A stretch of DNA of 29,241 nucleotides, taken from the NCBI GenBank assembly GCA_030916575.1, contig JAUPWJ010000036.1, positions 1 to 29,241 of the forward strand. Reading direction: 5' to 3'. Position numbers and translations under genes: made by a program. The notes under the pieces were generated by a model. That model ran no database searches, was not told the origin of the DNA, and saw nothing but the letters and a program-made list of their open reading frames with translations. The stretch is from Patescibacteria group bacterium (GTDB lineage: Bacteria; Patescibacteriota; Minisyncoccia; Phycocordibacterales; UBA9973). Shown in pieces: positions 3,307 to 29,241 of the stretch (its first letter is position 1; each line of letters opens with the position of its first letter).

Positions 3307-4551
3307 TTAGTCATCTTCATCCTCATCATCTTCGTCGTCATCTCCTCCACCTTGCCCACTATTATCATCTTCTTCATCCTCATCTTCATCAATATCGTCT
3401 TCTTCGTCTTCCATATCATCGTCTAAATCCTCATCATCAAAGTCTTCTTCGTCTTCCATATCATCGCTAGAGTCTCCATTACAATCCTCTGCATCTCTCC
3501 ATTCACCCCTACAAAATACTTCACTATCATCTTCTTTTACATCTTGATTTGATATTGAATCATCTGATATTTTATTTTCTCCTCCTTTGTCATCATTTAT
3601 ATCATCGTCTAAGTCATCACTAGAGTCATCATCTTTATCATCACTAGACTTACCACTCTTATCATCCTTAAATTCTATTTTTATCTTATCACCACTAGCT
3701 GTTTCTATTCTTATTTTACCGTCTTCTTTCTTAAACTCTATATCAGCGTCATCCCCTAATAATACCAATAGACTTTTTAAAGCCTCTTCTATTTTCAAAG
3801 AACGCTCAGGATCATTATTATCCTTTAATAGATTTTCTATATCCGTAAGAGCTACACCTACATCATTACTTTCACCTTCTGAGAAGTGCACAGAACGAGT
3901 CTTATTTAAGAATGTTTTATCATCTGCGCCACTTGTTCTGTCTTCTATTTGGAAATTTATAAATGTACTTACCTTTATTTCATCTATGGAATATTTTTTT
4001 GCAATTTCTTTAATAAGTTCTTCTTTTGTTTTCAAAGTACTTATGTATCCGTATTTTTTATCATTGGCTTCAATTTTTACCAATGTCTCATTTGTAAAAA
4101 CATCTACTTCTATTTCTGTTACCAAGGTACCTGAAAGGTCAGCAACTAAAACTGCTGGTACACTCTTTTTGTCTGAAATATTTTTTATTTCAGAAATTCT
4201 CTCTTCTGCGAATTTTAATTTTAAATCAGATTTTTTATTTTCACTTGCAAGTGAAATCTTTACTTTCTCAACTGCCAAATCAACTGGAAAAAGAAAATCT
4301 CCTGGTAGAGAATCATTTGAAGCTGCTACGACCCCCCCACCTCCTAATATAATTATTACGGCTAAAACACCCACAATCATTTTCTTCATATCATATTTCA
4401 TATAATTTTTTAATATATTAATTAATAACGGTTTTTTTACTTGTTCATTTTGTGCGATTTTCACCATTGCCCCATGCCAAATAGCATCCTTATCACCTTC
4501 CGTAAGTTTTTTTGTTTTTATTTTTATTAATTTGTCTTCAAGATTATTCAT
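3307..4551 (-). CDS. DUF5667-like single-pass membrane protein with a long D/E-rich C-terminal tail; putative anti-sigma factor
   Basis: About 55-aa N-terminal segment, a TM (IVGVLAVIIILGGGGVVAA), the motif SLPGDFLFPVDLAVEKV...AEERISEI, and an acidic tail. Overlaps the ECF sigma stop by 8 bp. Confidence 0.75.
   Translation of the reverse strand: MNNLEDKLIKIKTKKLTEGDKDAIWHGAMVKIAQNEQVKKPLLINILKNYMKYDMKKMIVGVLAVIIILGGGGVVAASNDSLPGDFLFPVDLAVEKVKISLASENKKSDLKLKFAEERISEIKNISDKKSVPAVLVADLSGTLVTEIEVDVFTNETLVKIEANDKKYGYISTLKTKEELIKEIAKKYSIDEIKVSTFINFQIEDRTSGADDKTFLNKTRSVHFSEGESNDVGVALTDIENLLKDNNDPERSLKIEEALKSLLVLLGDDADIEFKKEDGKIRIETASGDKIKIEFKDDKSGKSSDDKDDDSSDDLDDDINDDKGGENKISDDSISNQDVKEDDSEVFCRGEWRDAEDCNGDSSDDMEDEEDFDDEDLDDDMEDEEDDIDEDEDEEDDNSGQGGGDDDEDDEDEDD
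3397..3466. repeat. 25-bp perfect direct repeat (3397-3421 and 3442-3466) encoding DDMEDEED in the acidic tail
   Basis: GTCTTCTTCGTCTTCCATATCATCG occurs twice, 45 nt apart. Confidence 0.9.
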
Positions 4552-15937: not shown

Positions 15938-15946
15938 TTATCCACA
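15938..15946 (+). promoter_or_regulatory. Perfect DnaA box TTATCCACA
   Basis: Exact 9-mer between tRNA-Gln and the next promoter. Confidence 0.6.
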
Positions 15947-18128: not shown

Positions 18129-19181
18129 TCAAAATTTCTTTAAAAAATCATTTACTATTTTTTCAACCCCGTCTGCATTTTCGGCCTCCATGAGTTCCAC
18201 ACGGAGCTCTTTTGCACCTTCAAAATTATTCACATAAGCTTTGTAGTGCTTTTTCATAATTGCAAAATTTTTATGTTGACCCAACATTTCTTCAAAAAGT
18301 TTTGTGTGTTCTACCATAACTCGCAATTTCTCTGTAAGTGAAGGAATATTATTTGAAAGGACTTTCGGAGCGCGACGGCGCGAGAAGGAAAAAATTTTTT
18401 CCAAAAAATTATTTGTGCCTTTCAAATGATGTTCCGAACGAGGACTACTGAAAAGCCACGGATTTCCGAATATTGCGCGTCCGAGCATCACCCCATCACA
18501 ATCATATTCTTCACATTTACTTTTTCCATCTTGCATATCCAAAACATCACCATTACCAATTATTAAAGTCTCGGGAGAAATTTCATTTCTAATTTCCACC
18601 ACCCTTTTCATCACATCCCAATGTGCAGGCACAAGAGACATTTCTTTACGAGTTCGCAAGTGCACAGTGAGTGCTGATACACCCTCTTTTAAAATTTCTG
18701 GTATCCATGTTTCAATTTCATTTTTATTATAACCAATACGAGTCTTCACAGAGACAGGTAAACCACCCCCGCCTTCTTTCGCAGCTCTGATTATAGCTCG
18801 CGCAAGCTCAGGATTCTTTATCATACAAGCTCCAGCACCTTGTTTCTCAATACTTTTATCAGGACAACCCATATTAATATCTATACCATCAAAACCAAGC
18901 TCCTTACACAATTTGGAAGCTTCACGAATATTGTCCGGATTGGCTCCAAATATTTGCGCCACTATTGGATGTTCATTTTCACCATACTTCAAATCAATAA
19001 GAAGTTTTTCTCGTGCTTTGGGATGTGCCAAACCATCAGCAGAGACGAATTCAGTCCAAAAAACATCGGGCTTTCCATATTTTGCAATTATCTGTCTAAA
19101 AGCACAGTCAGTGACATCAGCCATTGGGGCTAAAACAAAGAATGGTTTATTTAATTTTTTCCAAAATCCCAAATTAATCAT
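18129..19181 (-). CDS. dus: tRNA-dihydrouridine synthase with an internal insertion of about 30 aa; likely start MINLGFW at 19181
   Basis: Motifs LAPMADVTD, DINMGCP, VSVKTRIG, GNGDV and GRAIFGNPWLF. Confidence 0.93.
   Translation of the reverse strand: MINLGFWKKLNKPFFVLAPMADVTDCAFRQIIAKYGKPDVFWTEFVSADGLAHPKAREKLLIDLKYGENEHPIVAQIFGANPDNIREASKLCKELGFDGIDINMGCPDKSIEKQGAGACMIKNPELARAIIRAAKEGGGGLPVSVKTRIGYNKNEIETWIPEILKEGVSALTVHLRTRKEMSLVPAHWDVMKRVVEIRNEISPETLIIGNGDVLDMQDGKSKCEEYDCDGVMLGRAIFGNPWLFSSPRSEHHLKGTNNFLEKIFSFSRRRAPKVLSNNIPSLTEKLRVMVEHTKLFEEMLGQHKNFAIMKKHYKAYVNNFEGAKELRVELMEAENADGVEKIVNDFLKKF
18347..18446. repeat. Palindromic, structured element inserted in frame in dus
   Basis: 10-bp perfect inverted repeat 18351-60/18418-27; 8-bp inverted repeat with one wobble 18364-71/18431-38; 16-bp perfect palindrome 18387-18402; AGGACT direct repeat at 18358 and 18441. 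Confidence 0.65.
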
Positions 19182-27358: not shown

Positions 27359-28363
27359 TTACAAACTAAAATTTGTAATATCGTAAAGTTTAGAATCGTC
27401 CTCCTTTACTTCTTCTTTACTCCTATCATCTATGGGTGTATTTTCTTGTGAAGGCGTATCAGATATGTTTTCCTCCCCTACTATCGGTGTATTTTCTGCA
27501 ATATGATTTTCTAACATATCAGTAACATTTTTTTCTATTTCTCCTTTTTTAATTTGATCTAATATTGCTCGCAAATCTTCTGTAGAAAAATAATCAATCT
27601 TTATCTGTCCTCCTGTATCTTTCCTCTCTATATGCACACGAGTACCAAGCTTGTCTTGAAGCTCTTCTTCAAGTTCAACTATTTCTGGGTCTGGCATATA
27701 CTCTTTCTTGCGAATTCTGTCGTATGCAATTTTCCTAGAAATTTTTTCTGCTTCACGCACAGTAAGTTTTCTAAAAATAATTTCTTTAAGAAGGACTATT
27801 TGCTCTTCGGGGTGGTCTGCAAGCATAAGAAGTGGACGAGTATGCCCTTCTGAAATTTTACCTTCAGAGAGAGCAGTAAGTGCATCTTCAGGTAAAGTAA
27901 GTAAACGTAAGGTATTGGAAATAGATTCGCGACTTTTACCGACTTTTTTTGCAATTTCTGCATGAGTAAATTTAAATTCATTTGCTAGGCGAAAAAATGC
28001 TCGAGCTTTATCAACTGCGTTAAGATCTTCACGCTGTAAATTCTCAAGTATAGCAAGCTCTAATTTCATAAGTGACGTATCGCCGACACGTATAATGACT
28101 GGCACTTGGGATACACCAGCTAGCTTCGCCGCACGAAGTCTTCGCTCTCCAGCAATAAGCTCATATTCAGTCATAAGTCCCCCATCTTCTTTTACGATTT
28201 CTACTCGAGATACTGTAAGAGGCTGAAGTATGCCATATTGACGCACAGATTCAGAAAGCTCAGCGAGCCTTGCTTCATCAAAATCTCGTCTTGGTTGATA
28301 AGGATTTGGTTTGATTTTATCGGTCTCTACCCAGAAGATTGAATTGGAATATAAATTTGACAT
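27359..28363 (-). CDS. parB: ParB/Spo0J partition protein
   Basis: PNPYQPR, GILQPL, ELIAGERRLRAA, ENLQREDLN, an HTH, and a low-complexity acidic tail. Confidence 0.95.
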   Translation of the reverse strand: MSNLYSNSIFWVETDKIKPNPYQPRRDFDEARLAELSESVRQYGILQPLTVSRVEIVKEDGGLMTEYELIAGERRLRAAKLAGVSQVPVIIRVGDTSLMKLELAILENLQREDLNAVDKARAFFRLANEFKFTHAEIAKKVGKSRESISNTLRLLTLPEDALTALSEGKISEGHTRPLLMLADHPEEQIVLLKEIIFRKLTVREAEKISRKIAYDRIRKKEYMPDPEIVELEEELQDKLGTRVHIERKDTGGQIKIDYFSTEDLRAILDQIKKGEIEKNVTDMLENHIAENTPIVGEENISDTPSQENTPIDDRSKEEVKEDDSKLYDITNFSL

Positions 28364-28437
28364 TGATCTATTTTAGCATAAAAAAACTTTTTATAAAATT
28401 GATTCTTGAGTAAAATTAGGTTAATATCATGTTAATT

Positions 28438-28521
28438 GCCCAGATGGCGGAATTGGTAGACGCGATGGACTCAAAATCCATTGATGGCAACATCATGAGA
28501 GTTCGATTCTCTCTCTGGGCA
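28438..28521 (+). tRNA. tRNA-Leu(CAA); CCA not encoded
   Basis: Acceptor GCCCAGA/TCTGGGC, D-loop AATTGGTA, anticodon arm ATGGA-CTCAAAA-TCCAT, long variable arm, GTTCGA. Confidence 0.96.
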
Positions 28522-28531
28522 CAATATAAAA

Positions 28532-28540
28532 TTATCCACA
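28532..28540 (+). promoter_or_regulatory. Perfect DnaA box TTATCCACA
   Basis: Exact 9-mer between tRNA-Leu and the HTH-murA promoter. Confidence 0.6.
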
Positions 28541-28554
28541 GTTTGTATTTACAA

Positions 28555-28572
28555 TATATCATATATGATATA
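28555..28572. promoter_or_regulatory. 18-bp perfect palindrome overlapping the extended -10 box; candidate operator
   Basis: TATATCATATATGATATA equals its own reverse complement; TATAAT at 28569-28574. Confidence 0.55.
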
Positions 28573-28582
28573 ATATGTATTT

Positions 28583-29241
28583 ATGGCGAATAATTCACAA
28601 AAACAAATTGGGGCTTTTATTAAAACATTACGAGAAAGAAAAGGCATTACGCAAGGAGATTTTGCTAAAATGCTTTCCACTTCTCAAAGTGCAGTAGCGA
28701 GAATGGAAAAAGGTGAGCAAAATTTCTCAACTGATTTATTAAATAAAATTAGTACTGTCCTCGGTCAGAGTATAGTATCTATAAACAACACGACAGACTT
28801 TGAAGTAAATGGGGGTAAAAAATTACACGGTAGTATTAAAACAAATTTTTCTAAAAATGGCTCAGTTGGTCTACTTTGTGCTTCCCTTCTAAATAAAGGC
28901 AAGACCACTTTACACGGTATAGCTCGTATAGAAGAAGTTTATAGAGTTATAGAAATATTGGAATCAATCGGAGTGAAAGTAAAATGGACTGCTCAAAACT
29001 CTCTTATAATTACTCCTCCTACAAAATTTAATTTAAAGAATATAAATGTTGAATCAGCAATCAAAACTCGCTCTATTGTCATGCTTATGGGTCCACTCGC
29101 CCACCATATGAATTCTTTTTCTATCCCCCATGCTCAAGGATGCAACTTGGGTAAACGCACTATATCTGCTCATACATATGCTCTTGCAGACTTAGGAATA
29201 AAAATAAAAACTACTAATAATAGTTATGAAATAAGTAGTAC
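28583..29241 (+). CDS. murA: XRE-family HTH fused to UDP-N-acetylglucosamine enolpyruvyl transferase; 3'-partial and absent from the ORF track
   Basis: HTH IKTLRERKGITQGDFAKMLSTSQSAVARMEKG, then MurA motifs VNGGKKLHGSI, SKN, RSIVMLMGPL and QGCNLGKR (catalytic Cys loop). Open to the window end. Confidence 0.9.
   Translation, partial: MANNSQKQIGAFIKTLRERKGITQGDFAKMLSTSQSAVARMEKGEQNFSTDLLNKISTVLGQSIVSINNTTDFEVNGGKKLHGSIKTNFSKNGSVGLLCASLLNKGKTTLHGIARIEEVYRVIEILESIGVKVKWTAQNSLIITPPTKFNLKNINVESAIKTRSIVMLMGPLAHHMNSFSIPHAQGCNLGKRTISAHTYALADLGIKIKTTNNSYEISS

What the first reader, a model, noticed from the sequence alone, without database searches (positions are those of the whole stretch)
28532..29241. 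XRE-HTH-MurA fusion with a perfect 18-bp palindrome on its own promoter: candidate self-regulating enzyme
The first committed enzyme of peptidoglycan synthesis carries an N-terminal XRE HTH and keeps the catalytic Cys loop. TATATCATATATGATATA overlaps its extended -10 box, where a repressor operator would sit, and a DnaA box lies 14 nt upstream. Hypothesis: a trigger enzyme that senses UDP-GlcNAc, PEP or product and represses its own leaderless transcript. HTH-MurA fusions are known to exist; the operator link is my inference.
Basis: partly seen in the sequence, partly recalled or inferred. Interest (0 to 1): 0.65.

Follow-up and report, generated by a model that had tools for sequence, protein, structure and literature searches.

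The report
MurA enzyme with its own operator
In this tiny uncultured Patescibacteria bacterium the enzyme that starts cell-wall synthesis (MurA) carries a repressor-type DNA-binding head, and an 18-base palindrome inside its own promoter is kept almost letter for letter wherever that head is present, so the enzyme very probably switches off its own gene.

Summary
ORF 28583-29239, cut by the contig end, encodes an XRE HTH fused to the N-terminal part of MurA, including the catalytic Cys. The perfect palindrome lies at 28555-28572, between a -35 (TTTACA) and a -10 (TAATAT, or TGATATAAT). An exact TTATCCACA lies 14 nt upstream.

Alone the palindrome is weak evidence: the genome has 20 perfect palindromes of 18 bp or more, against 2-11 in shuffles. 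Comparison decides it.
- Of 95 distinct HTH-murA loci, 92 carry the site (91 with at most 2 mismatches, one a 4-mismatch symmetric variant); the other three stop at contig ends.
- All 11 HTH-less murA loci lack it.
- All 18 positions are conserved whatever lies upstream.
- The paired positions 4/15 and 5/14 change together with the HTH recognition helix.
- The site occurs once per genome.

Autorepression of a probably leaderless murA mRNA is well supported. Ligand sensing ("trigger enzyme") is untested. The DnaA box belongs to a genome-wide class of promoter-proximal boxes.

I found no paper describing this. This scan has already reported the same circuit on 50 or more other genomes, and DnaA-box promoters as well.

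The parts
28438..28522 (+). tRNA-Leu(CAA), co-oriented with murA and 60 nt upstream of its ATG. No terminator follows, so read-through into murA is possible.
   Evidence: ARAGORN. No terminator-like site in 28300-28700. The same tRNA precedes murA in 10 of 11 HTH-less relatives.
28532..28540 (+). Exact DnaA-box 9-mer TTATCCACA, 7 nt upstream of the -35 and 14 nt upstream of the palindrome.
   Evidence: A 9-mer with at most 1 mismatch, always in + orientation, lies 6-28 nt before the palindrome in 29 of 55 loci without divergent murB. In the genome 18 of 30 copies are non-coding, against a mean of 1.36 for permuted 9-mers.
28548..28553 (+). -35 element TTTACA (relatives: TTGCAA or TTGCAT).
   Evidence: Promoter scan TTTACA-17-TAATAT. 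The aligned position is conserved at 84-97% in relatives.
28555..28572 (.). 18-bp perfect palindrome TATATCATATATGATATA, the inferred operator of the fused HTH. It fills the -35/-10 spacer and overlaps the -10.
   Evidence: unique in the genome. Present in 92 of 95 HTH-murA loci, 91 with at most 2 mismatches. Positions 1-18 are about 100% conserved in all upstream contexts.
28566..28576 (+). -10 region: extended -10 TGATATAAT (28566-28574) and TAATAT (28571-28576), the latter 17 nt from the -35.
   Evidence: In relatives the -10 (TATAAT or TATACT) sits at palindrome positions 17-22.
28583..28774 (+). Start codon (probable transcription start, leaderless) and the XRE/Cro-C1 HTH domain, aa 1-64. 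The recognition helix TSQSAVARME is aa 33-42 (28679-28708).
   Evidence: Pfam HTH_3. Closest solved relatives are dimeric DNA-binding XRE proteins: C.BclI, ClgR, PezA, HigA. No SD motif, with the ATG 6-8 nt after the -10.
28775..28804 (+). Linker, aa 65-74.
   Evidence: pLDDT about 53 in the model of the 95%-identical full-length protein.
28805..29239 (+). N-terminal 145 residues of the MurA domain, truncated by the contig end. K91-N92 lie at 28853-28858, Cys187 at 29141-29143 and R192 is present.
   Evidence: Pfam and NCBIfam MurA models. Alignment to solved MurA structures. A 12,976-nt public contig continues 2,173 nt past the window end.

Best explanation
The gene encodes the cell's only detected MurA (UDP-GlcNAc enolpyruvyl transferase) with an N-terminal XRE-type helix-turn-helix.

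Proposed mechanism:
1. Two HTH heads of a MurA dimer bind the two arms of the 18-bp palindrome.
2. The palindrome occupies the spacer between the -35 and -10 of the gene's own promoter.
3. Bound protein keeps RNA polymerase off, so murA transcription falls as MurA protein accumulates (negative autoregulation).
4. The transcript probably starts at or 1-2 nt before the ATG, so it is leaderless.

Shown here: the fusion, the site, its position in the promoter, its near-perfect conservation, its restriction to HTH-bearing genes, and its co-variation with the recognition helix.

Inferred: physical binding, the direction of the effect (repression), dimer binding, and the transcription start.

Whether substrate or product occupancy of the MurA body modulates binding is open.
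For: 1. Fusion and enzyme:
- HTH_3 plus the MurA N-part lie in one frame.
- The 95%-identical full-length P0001 (503 aa) passes the NCBIfam MurA subfamily cut-off, 302.7 against 297 bits, and scores far above AroA at 53 bits.
- K91/N92, R163, C187, R192, D388, R414 and R456 are invariant in 42 fusions and align with the conserved motifs of solved MurA structures.
- It is the only PF00275 hit in the assembly.

2. Footprinting:
- 91 of 95 distinct HTH-murA loci (50-95% protein identity) have the site with at most 2 mismatches. One more has a symmetric variant, and the other three have 256 nt or less of upstream DNA.
- In 11 HTH-less murA loci the best match has 5 or more mismatches.

3. It is not merely a promoter:
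- Positions 1-18 are about 100% conserved with divergent murB (n=37), a co-oriented tRNA (n=19) or other DNA (n=30) upstream. Flanks fall to 40-60%.
- When extra DNA is inserted, the palindrome stays with the -35/-10, not with the ATG.

4. Specificity co-variation:
- Helix TSQSAVAR goes with A4/T15 in both arms in 48 loci, in one arm in 12 and in neither in 0.
- Helix TSQSS[IV]PR gives 0, 17 and 10 for the same three classes.
- The TTQSA[IV]AR clade has TATAGC...GCTATA, a symmetric double change.
- Independent contrasts on supported branches all go the same way (3 of 3).

5. The site occurs once per genome in 41 relatives, at murA. The exceptions are look-alikes beside unrelated small XRE or other small HTH genes.

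6. The HTH resembles dimeric operator-binding XRE proteins.

7. Homodimer model: score 0.61, best of 3 controls 0.00. That mark was reached by 20 of 30 proteins solved as pairs of one chain and by 1 of 23 solved as single chains. Runs agree in at least 89% of contacts, and partner pLDDT is at least 85. The interface lies in the MurA body. This supports a dimer but does not show one, and it may reflect likeness to solved MurA crystals.

8. Geometry:
- The operator spans a 15-17 nt spacer, the classic repressor position.
- The ATG lies 9-15 nt after the palindrome, without an SD motif, in 65 of 92 loci.
Against: - No binding, expression or transcription-start data exist.
- The palindrome alone is not statistically unusual in this AT-rich genome.
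- The right arm overlaps the -10, and in murB-divergent relatives the left arm doubles as a -10 for murB. Part of the conservation is therefore promoter constraint.
- Co-loss of HTH and operator is partly trivial, because they lie 10 nt apart and one deletion removes both.
- The co-variation rests on few independent events (3-4 on well-supported branches, sign test not significant).
- The window holds only 219 codons, so full-length properties are taken from a 95%-identical relative.
- The HTH lacks the fifth helix that many XRE proteins use to dimerise.
- The predicted dimer interface is not clearly less conserved in HTH-less relatives.
Confidence: 0.77

Rival explanations
1. Pure promoter architecture. 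The palindrome is two back-to-back extended -10 elements (TGnTATAAT on each strand) of a once bidirectional murB/murA promoter. It is conserved for RNA polymerase, not for the HTH.
For: In 37 relatives murB starts 8-13 nt to the left. There the left arm reads TGATATAAT on the minus strand, with the murB ATG as the 7th base after it. In the window the minus strand reads TGATATATT.
Against: - In the window, and in 55 loci without divergent murB, the left arm is just as conserved.
- Spacer positions 5-12 have no promoter role, yet they are 89-100% conserved.
- Other promoters of the genome do not carry the sequence: it is unique.
- The changes are symmetric and follow the recognition helix.
- HTH-less murA genes do without it.
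Confidence: 0.07
2. The palindrome is an operator, but for another regulator. The HTH on MurA would then serve another purpose, such as protein-protein contact (as the XRE-type HTH of RodZ binds MreB) or non-specific nucleoid tethering.
For: Small stand-alone XRE proteins exist in these genomes, for example a 115-aa ORF on contig C35 with 40% identity. RodZ-type use of an XRE fold is established knowledge.
Against: - The site is found only where the fused HTH is present, and it changes with that HTH's recognition helix.
- The stand-alone XRE of this genome has a different recognition helix.
- HTH-less genomes keep no close copy of this HTH.
- One site per genome, next to the HTH gene, is the signature of an autoregulated XRE protein.
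Confidence: 0.06
3. HTH-MurA binds the site but does not act as a simple repressor of its own promoter. It could act as a roadblock that stops read-through from the tRNA-Leu promoter, or as an activator or architectural factor together with the factor that reads the adjacent DnaA box.
For: There is no terminator between tRNA-Leu and murA. In HTH-less relatives murA sits 3-4 nt behind the tRNA and must be transcribed with it. A DnaA-box-like 9-mer accompanies the promoter in 29 of 55 loci without divergent murB.
Against: The operator keeps a fixed register with the -35 and -10 in every context, including the many loci with no tRNA upstream. A 15-17 nt spacer needs no MerR-type remodelling. A site covering the spacer and the -10 normally excludes RNA polymerase.
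Confidence: 0.1

Closest known systems
BirA / bioO of Escherichia coli (biotin protein ligase and bio-operon repressor)
   Same: An active enzyme with an N-terminal HTH-type DNA-binding domain. It binds as a dimer to a palindromic operator that overlaps promoters. In many relatives of this locus the operator lies between divergent murB and murA, as bioO lies between bioA and bioBFCD (the BirA facts are from established knowledge).
   Different: BirA has a winged helix, not an XRE fold. It regulates the pathway operon, not its own gene, and its co-repressor (biotinyl-5'-AMP) is known. Here the enzyme is MurA, the gene regulates itself, and no effector is known.
PutA and NadR (trigger enzymes with a fused DNA-binding domain)
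   Same: Bifunctional enzyme-repressors. PutA represses its own gene from a divergent control region (established knowledge).
   Different: They have different DNA-binding folds (RHH in PutA) and different pathways, and for PutA a redox and membrane switch has been demonstrated. Nothing comparable has been tested here.
Autoregulated XRE/Cro-C1 repressors (434 Cro/cI, controller protein C.BclI, ClgR, HigA and PezA antitoxins)
   Same: The same HTH family (HTH_3; best solved matches). A 14-18 bp dyad operator lies over the protein's own promoter, and the recognition helix begins with S/T-Q-S.
   Different: Those proteins are small dedicated regulators that dimerise through a fifth helix or a C-terminal domain. 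Here that place is taken by a 430-residue essential enzyme, and the predicted dimer contact lies in the enzyme body.
BzdR-type regulators (XRE HTH fused to a shikimate-kinase-like domain; NCBIfam PRK08154)
   Same: An N-terminal XRE HTH joined by a linker to an enzyme-fold domain. The HTH of this protein gives a weak match to that model.
   Different: In BzdR the kinase-like domain serves as a sensor for benzoyl-CoA and is not the cell's enzyme (established knowledge). Here the catalytic residues are intact and it is the only MurA detected.
Known controls of MurA: ClpCP with ReoM/ReoY and PASTA kinases in Firmicutes, CwlM in mycobacteria, LpxC-MurA coupling in Pseudomonas
   Same: The same control point, the first committed step of peptidoglycan synthesis (papers listed: PMC7286690, PMC12077105, PMC4946905, PMC9995270).
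   Different: All of those act on the protein, through proteolysis, phosphorylation signalling or partner binding. Here the control is transcriptional and built into the enzyme.

Membership tests
MurA (UDP-N-acetylglucosamine 1-carboxyvinyltransferase) | EPSP-synthase fold and a score above the curated MurA model cut-offs | tested here: met
   Pfam PF00275 covers aa 75-491 of P0001. NCBIfam NF006873 MurA subfamily: 302.7 bits against a 297 cut-off. The stricter equivalog TIGR01072 is not reached (295 against 392.7). AroA scores only 53 bits. The window fragment covers model positions 3-147 only.
MurA (UDP-N-acetylglucosamine 1-carboxyvinyltransferase) | Catalytic Cys loop and conserved Lys, Arg and Asp residues | tested here: met
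   K91-N92, R163, C187 and R192 are in the window. D388, R414 and R456 are in P0001. All are invariant in 42 fusions and align with the same residues of solved MurA 5ujs.
MurA (UDP-N-acetylglucosamine 1-carboxyvinyltransferase) | Enzymatic activity, serving as the cell's MurA | not testable with these tools
   It is the only PF00275 match in the 74%-complete assembly. murB is present elsewhere, at C6:15126-16175.
Autoregulated XRE/Cro-C1 HTH repressor | HTH_3 domain above the cut-off | tested here: met
   46.3 bits against a cut-off of 23, aa 13-64.
Autoregulated XRE/Cro-C1 HTH repressor | Dyad-symmetric site over the protein's own promoter, conserved in orthologues | tested here: met
Autoregulated XRE/Cro-C1 HTH repressor | Recognition helix and operator change together | tested here: met
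   Contingency 48/12/0 against 0/17/10, and the TTQS clade with TATAGC arms. Few independent events.
Autoregulated XRE/Cro-C1 HTH repressor | Dimer formation | tested here: inconclusive
   Model only: score 0.61, best control 0.00. The mark was reached by 20 of 30 proteins solved as pairs of one chain and by 1 of 23 solved as single chains. Contacts agree in at least 89% of cases and pLDDT is at least 85. The interface lies in the MurA body, not in the HTH.
Autoregulated XRE/Cro-C1 HTH repressor | Specific DNA binding and repression | not testable with these tools
   Needs EMSA, footprinting or a reporter assay.
Trigger enzyme (enzyme whose regulatory activity depends on its substrate or product) | Effector-dependent DNA binding | not testable with these tools
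   The fold model shows a flexible linker (pLDDT about 53) and no docking of the HTH on the enzyme. There is no evidence either way.
DnaA box as part of a replication origin | A cluster of boxes next to dnaA or an AT-rich unwinding element | tested here: not met
   There is a single box here. dnaA lies on another contig, C71. Boxes are scattered before promoters across the genome.
Promoter-proximal DnaA-box element of Patescibacteria | Exact 9-mer just upstream of a -35, co-oriented with the gene and enriched in non-coding DNA | tested here: met
   18 non-coding copies against a mean of 1.36 for permuted 9-mers. It lies 7 nt before the -35 here. It recurs in + orientation in 29 of 55 murA loci. 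Which protein reads it was not tested.

The most novel reading that the evidence does not exclude
HTH-MurA is a true metabolite-sensing trigger enzyme. Occupancy of the MurA body would change the geometry of the MurA-MurA dimer, and with it the spacing of the two HTH heads and their affinity for the operator. Candidate ligands are UDP-GlcNAc with PEP, or the tightly bound pathway product UDP-MurNAc, which is known from enterobacterial MurA. Flux into peptidoglycan would then feed back directly on murA transcription, and on murB in many relatives. The adjacent DnaA box would add a replication-linked input. Together this would be a minimal cell-cycle and cell-wall coupling circuit in organisms with very few regulators.
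Probability: 0.25. Interest if true: 0.8.

Novelty: new variant of a known kind. Interest (0 to 1): 0.62.

Why it matters
MurA is the committed step of peptidoglycan synthesis and the target of fosfomycin. Every control of it described so far acts on the protein. A MurA that binds its own promoter would add a transcriptional layer built into the enzyme, and a new member of the small class of enzyme-repressors such as BirA, PutA and NadR.

It would also show how ultra-small Patescibacteria, which have few regulators, economise by fusing a DNA-binding head to an essential enzyme.

The system is unusually tractable. It consists of one protein and one 18-bp site. Natural variants pair helix types with operator types. 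Relatives have repeatedly lost the module and can serve as controls.

Tried and rejected
- RNA hairpin or terminator: folding 28545-28590 as RNA gives -8 kcal/mol, z = -1.1, with no T-run and no terminator call. Rejected.
- Wider regulon in this genome: no second site with at most 1 mismatch. The 2-3-mismatch matches (C16:4692, C25:19090, window 4387) are not dyads with the C/G pair. murB of this genome sits inside another operon without a site.
- Extra pattern matches in relatives (G010:C34, G012:C4, G039:C5) lie at HigA-type toxin-antitoxin loci or a small excisionase-like HTH gene. They are not cell-wall genes.
- Rest of the gene: not in the assembly, so full-length work used the 95%-identical P0001.
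- Expression: only assembled contigs of public runs were available, so no transcription start could be read. One 230-nt contig from a wastewater metatranscriptome library lies on 28842-29071 with no differences, but DNA carry-over cannot be excluded. Parts without cover say nothing.
- Dimer-interface relaxation in HTH-less relatives: divergence ratio, interface over rest, is 1.10 against 0.88 in HTH-bearing ones. That is too small to interpret.
- Rfam on the long leaders of some relatives: only tRNAs were found.
- Literature: six searches (HTH or XRE with MurA, trigger enzyme with Patescibacteria, MurA2 with Streptomyces, Parcubacteria with MurA, 'HTH-MurA') found no description. Three apparent hits were false or irrelevant.

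Full report
**What is in the window**

The window is one whole contig (C74) of an 842-kb, 93-contig, 74%-complete assembly with 34% G+C. Close relatives are named Paceibacteria, Nomurabacteria or Patescibacteria in public records. The same DNA occurs in activated-sludge, wastewater and freshwater metagenomes.

The last 710 bases hold the following features, in order:

| Feature | Coordinates | Source |
|---|---|---|
| tRNA-Leu(CAA) | 28438-28522 | |
| Exact TTATCCACA | 28532-28540 | |
| -35 TTTACA | 28548-28553 | |
| Perfect palindrome TATATCATATATGATATA | 28555-28572 | |
| -10 TAATAT, 17-nt spacer | 28571-28576 | |
| Alternative extended -10 TGATATAAT | 28566-28574 | |
| ATG | 28583 | |

The ORF runs to the contig end, 219 codons. 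It has Pfam HTH_3 at aa 13-64 and the first 142 profile positions of the EPSP-synthase/MurA fold at aa 75-214. Upstream on the minus strand is parB, and before that a RelA/SpoT gene.

**Is it MurA?**

- The fragment is 95% identical to a 503-aa public protein, P0001.
- P0001 passes the NCBIfam MurA subfamily cut-off but not the stricter equivalog cut-off. It scores far above AroA.
- P0001 aligns end to end with solved MurA structures at about 30% identity.
- K91/N92, R163, C187, R192, D388, R414 and R456 are invariant in 42 fusion proteins. They line up with the conserved motifs of solved MurA.
- It is the only PF00275 match in the assembly, and murB is present elsewhere.
- A 12,976-nt public contig covers the stretch without a difference and continues 2,173 nt beyond the window. 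The truncation is therefore an assembly end, not a broken gene.

**Is the palindrome more than chance?**

Not on its own. The genome has 20 perfect palindromes of 18 bp or more, and block-shuffled genomes have 2-11. The exact sequence is unique in the genome.

**Phylogenetic footprinting**

I fetched 110 murA loci from species-representative genomes. After removing duplicates there were 95 HTH-murA loci and 11 HTH-less murA loci.

- Of the 95, 91 carry the palindrome with at most 2 mismatches within 700 nt upstream.
- One more carries a 4-mismatch version of a symmetric variant.
- The remaining three have only 18-256 nt of upstream DNA before a contig end.
- In the 11 HTH-less loci the best match has 5-8 mismatches.

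When the loci are aligned on the site, positions 1-18 are 89-100% conserved. The exceptions are the mirror pair 4/15 (50-74% in some contexts), while the mirror pair 8/11 dips only to 89-93%. The -35 and -10 are also conserved, and everything else falls to 40-60%. This holds equally with divergent murB upstream (37 loci), a co-oriented tRNA as here (19) or other DNA (30).

In murB-divergent relatives the left arm does double as an extended -10 for a leaderless murB. In the window no gene diverges from it, yet the left arm is perfect.

In relatives where 110-590 nt have been inserted in front of the gene, the palindrome stays with the -35/-10 and not with the ATG. It is therefore a DNA-level promoter element.

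**Link to the fused HTH**

The variable operator positions follow the recognition helix.

| Recognition helix | A4/T15 in both arms | C/G in one arm | C/G in both arms |
|---|---|---|---|
| TSQSAVAR-type | 48 | 12 | 0 |
| TSQSS[IV]PR-type | 0 | 17 | 10 |

- A distant clade (about 50% identity) with TTQSA[IV]AR has TATAGC...GCTATA, a symmetric double change at positions 5/14.
- On a tree built from the MurA domain alone, the few contrasts on well-supported branches all agree: 3 of 3 for helix against operator and 4 of 4 for HTH against site. These are too few for a significant sign test.
- The pattern TATNNCATATATGNNATA occurs once per genome in 41 relatives, at murA. The exceptions are look-alikes at two HigA-type toxin-antitoxin loci and one excisionase-like gene.
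- The stand-alone XRE of this genome has a different recognition helix.
- The nearest solved relatives of the HTH are dimeric operator-binding proteins: C.BclI, ClgR, PezA and HigA.

**Mechanism**

The operator fills a spacer of normal length (15-17 nt) and overlaps the -10. This is the classic position for steric repression.

The palindrome-to-ATG distance is 9-15 nt in 65 of 92 loci (mode 11; 10 in the window), with no Shine-Dalgarno motif. The ATG therefore falls 7-8 nt after the -10, which implies a leaderless mRNA.

The AlphaFold model of P0001 (mean pLDDT 88.4) shows a four-helix HTH joined to the enzyme by a low-confidence linker, residues 61-70. The Cys loop is flexible, as in known MurA structures.

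The homodimer prediction scored 0.61, with 0.00 for the best of 3 controls.
- That mark was reached by 20 of 30 proteins solved as pairs of one chain and by 1 of 23 solved as single chains.
- The runs agree in at least 89% of contacts, and partner pLDDT is at least 85.
- The interface is symmetric and lies in the MurA body (residues 195-199, 228-232, 280-282, 332-340, 374-384, 407-409, 432-434), not in the HTH.
- This supports a dimer that could present two heads to the dyad, but does not show one. It may reflect likeness to MurA crystal dimers.

Ligand control remains pure inference.

**Evolution**

Class-wide, the fusion was found only in the window's own genus and order, in 2 of 120 evenly drawn genomes. 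Within the order it is in about half of the families sampled, and within the genus in 13 of 24 genomes.

HTH-less MurA proteins of the genus are not one clade (AU test p = 8.6e-7; at least 4 changes on supported branches). In 10 of 11 HTH-less loci murA lies 3-165 nt behind the same tRNA-Leu(CAA). The box, promoter, operator and HTH were therefore lost as a block more than once, leaving murA to be transcribed with the tRNA. Because the operator and the HTH lie 10 nt apart, their co-loss is only weak functional evidence.

**The DnaA box**

- TTATCCACA occurs 30 times in the genome. Of these, 18 are in the roughly 17% of the genome that is non-coding, against a mean of 1.36 (maximum 7) for 200 permuted 9-mers.
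- The copies typically lie 4-18 nt upstream of a -35.
- dnaA is on another contig.
- Among murA loci without divergent murB, 29 of 55 have the box with at most 1 mismatch. It is always co-oriented and lies 6-28 nt before the palindrome.
- It is a general promoter-proximal element of these organisms, not a murA-specific feature or an origin.

**Novelty**

Six literature searches found no description of an HTH-MurA protein or its operator. Databases annotate the proteins as MurA or as 'XRE family regulator'.

This scan has already reported the same circuit on 50 or more other genomes, and DnaA-box promoters on about 80. I treated those notes as leads and re-derived everything above on this window's own relatives.

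Noticed in passing
window 15938-15946 and 28532-28540; genome-wide in G000 (e.g. C1:2801, C8:574, C28:2760, C29:4500): The exact DnaA-box 9-mer TTATCCACA is about 13-fold enriched in non-coding DNA (18 copies). It usually lies 4-18 nt upstream of a -35. In the window both copies follow a tRNA gene (tRNA-Gln and tRNA-Leu) and precede a promoter.
   Followed up: partly
G000 contig C1, 5599-6626: Three exact DnaA boxes lie within 1 kb (5599, 5619 and 6618 on the minus strand). This may be the replication origin, although dnaA lies on contig C71.
   Followed up: no
L015:1424-1515, L024:1383-1473 (also L018, L019, L021): In HTH-less relatives of the same genus the murA ATG lies only 3-4 nt behind the 3' end of tRNA-Leu(CAA), with no room for a promoter or an SD motif. 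The mRNA 5' end may be made by tRNA 3' processing, in a 'tRNA punctuation'-like arrangement.
   Followed up: partly
L039:2878-3000, L094:2881-3000, L057:2839-2988, L058:2854-2988: Elements of about 110-150 nt are inserted between the operator/promoter and the HTH-murA ATG. Their ends pair with each other (e.g. CCCGTTAGAGAT...ATCTCTAACGGG), and the 3' arm ends in GGG or AGG directly before the ATG. There is no Rfam match. They could be small mobile hairpin elements or regulatory leaders.
   Followed up: partly
L045:2402-3000, L051:2264-2870: In two relatives a small gene (one histidine-phosphatase-like, one P-loop-like by eye) sits between the operator and HTH-murA. There the operator would control a two-gene operon.
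   Followed up: no
L115 (G010:C34:3592-3609), L116 (G012:C4:28550-28567): Look-alike palindromes (TATAACATATATGTGATA, TATTACATATATGTGATA) lie between a gene of about 107 aa and a HigA-type XRE gene. These are probably toxin-antitoxin operators with the same core, CATATATG.
   Followed up: partly
P0001 residues 195-199, 228-232, 280-282, 332-340, 374-384, 407-409, 432-434: A symmetric MurA-MurA dimer interface is predicted in the enzyme body. Part of it lies near a segment of about 12 residues that solved MurA structures lack in the alignment.
   Followed up: partly
window 4239-4256 and 18387-18402: Two other perfect palindromes occur in the window: TTTCACTTGCAAGTGAAA and GGAAAAAATTTTTTCC.
   Followed up: no
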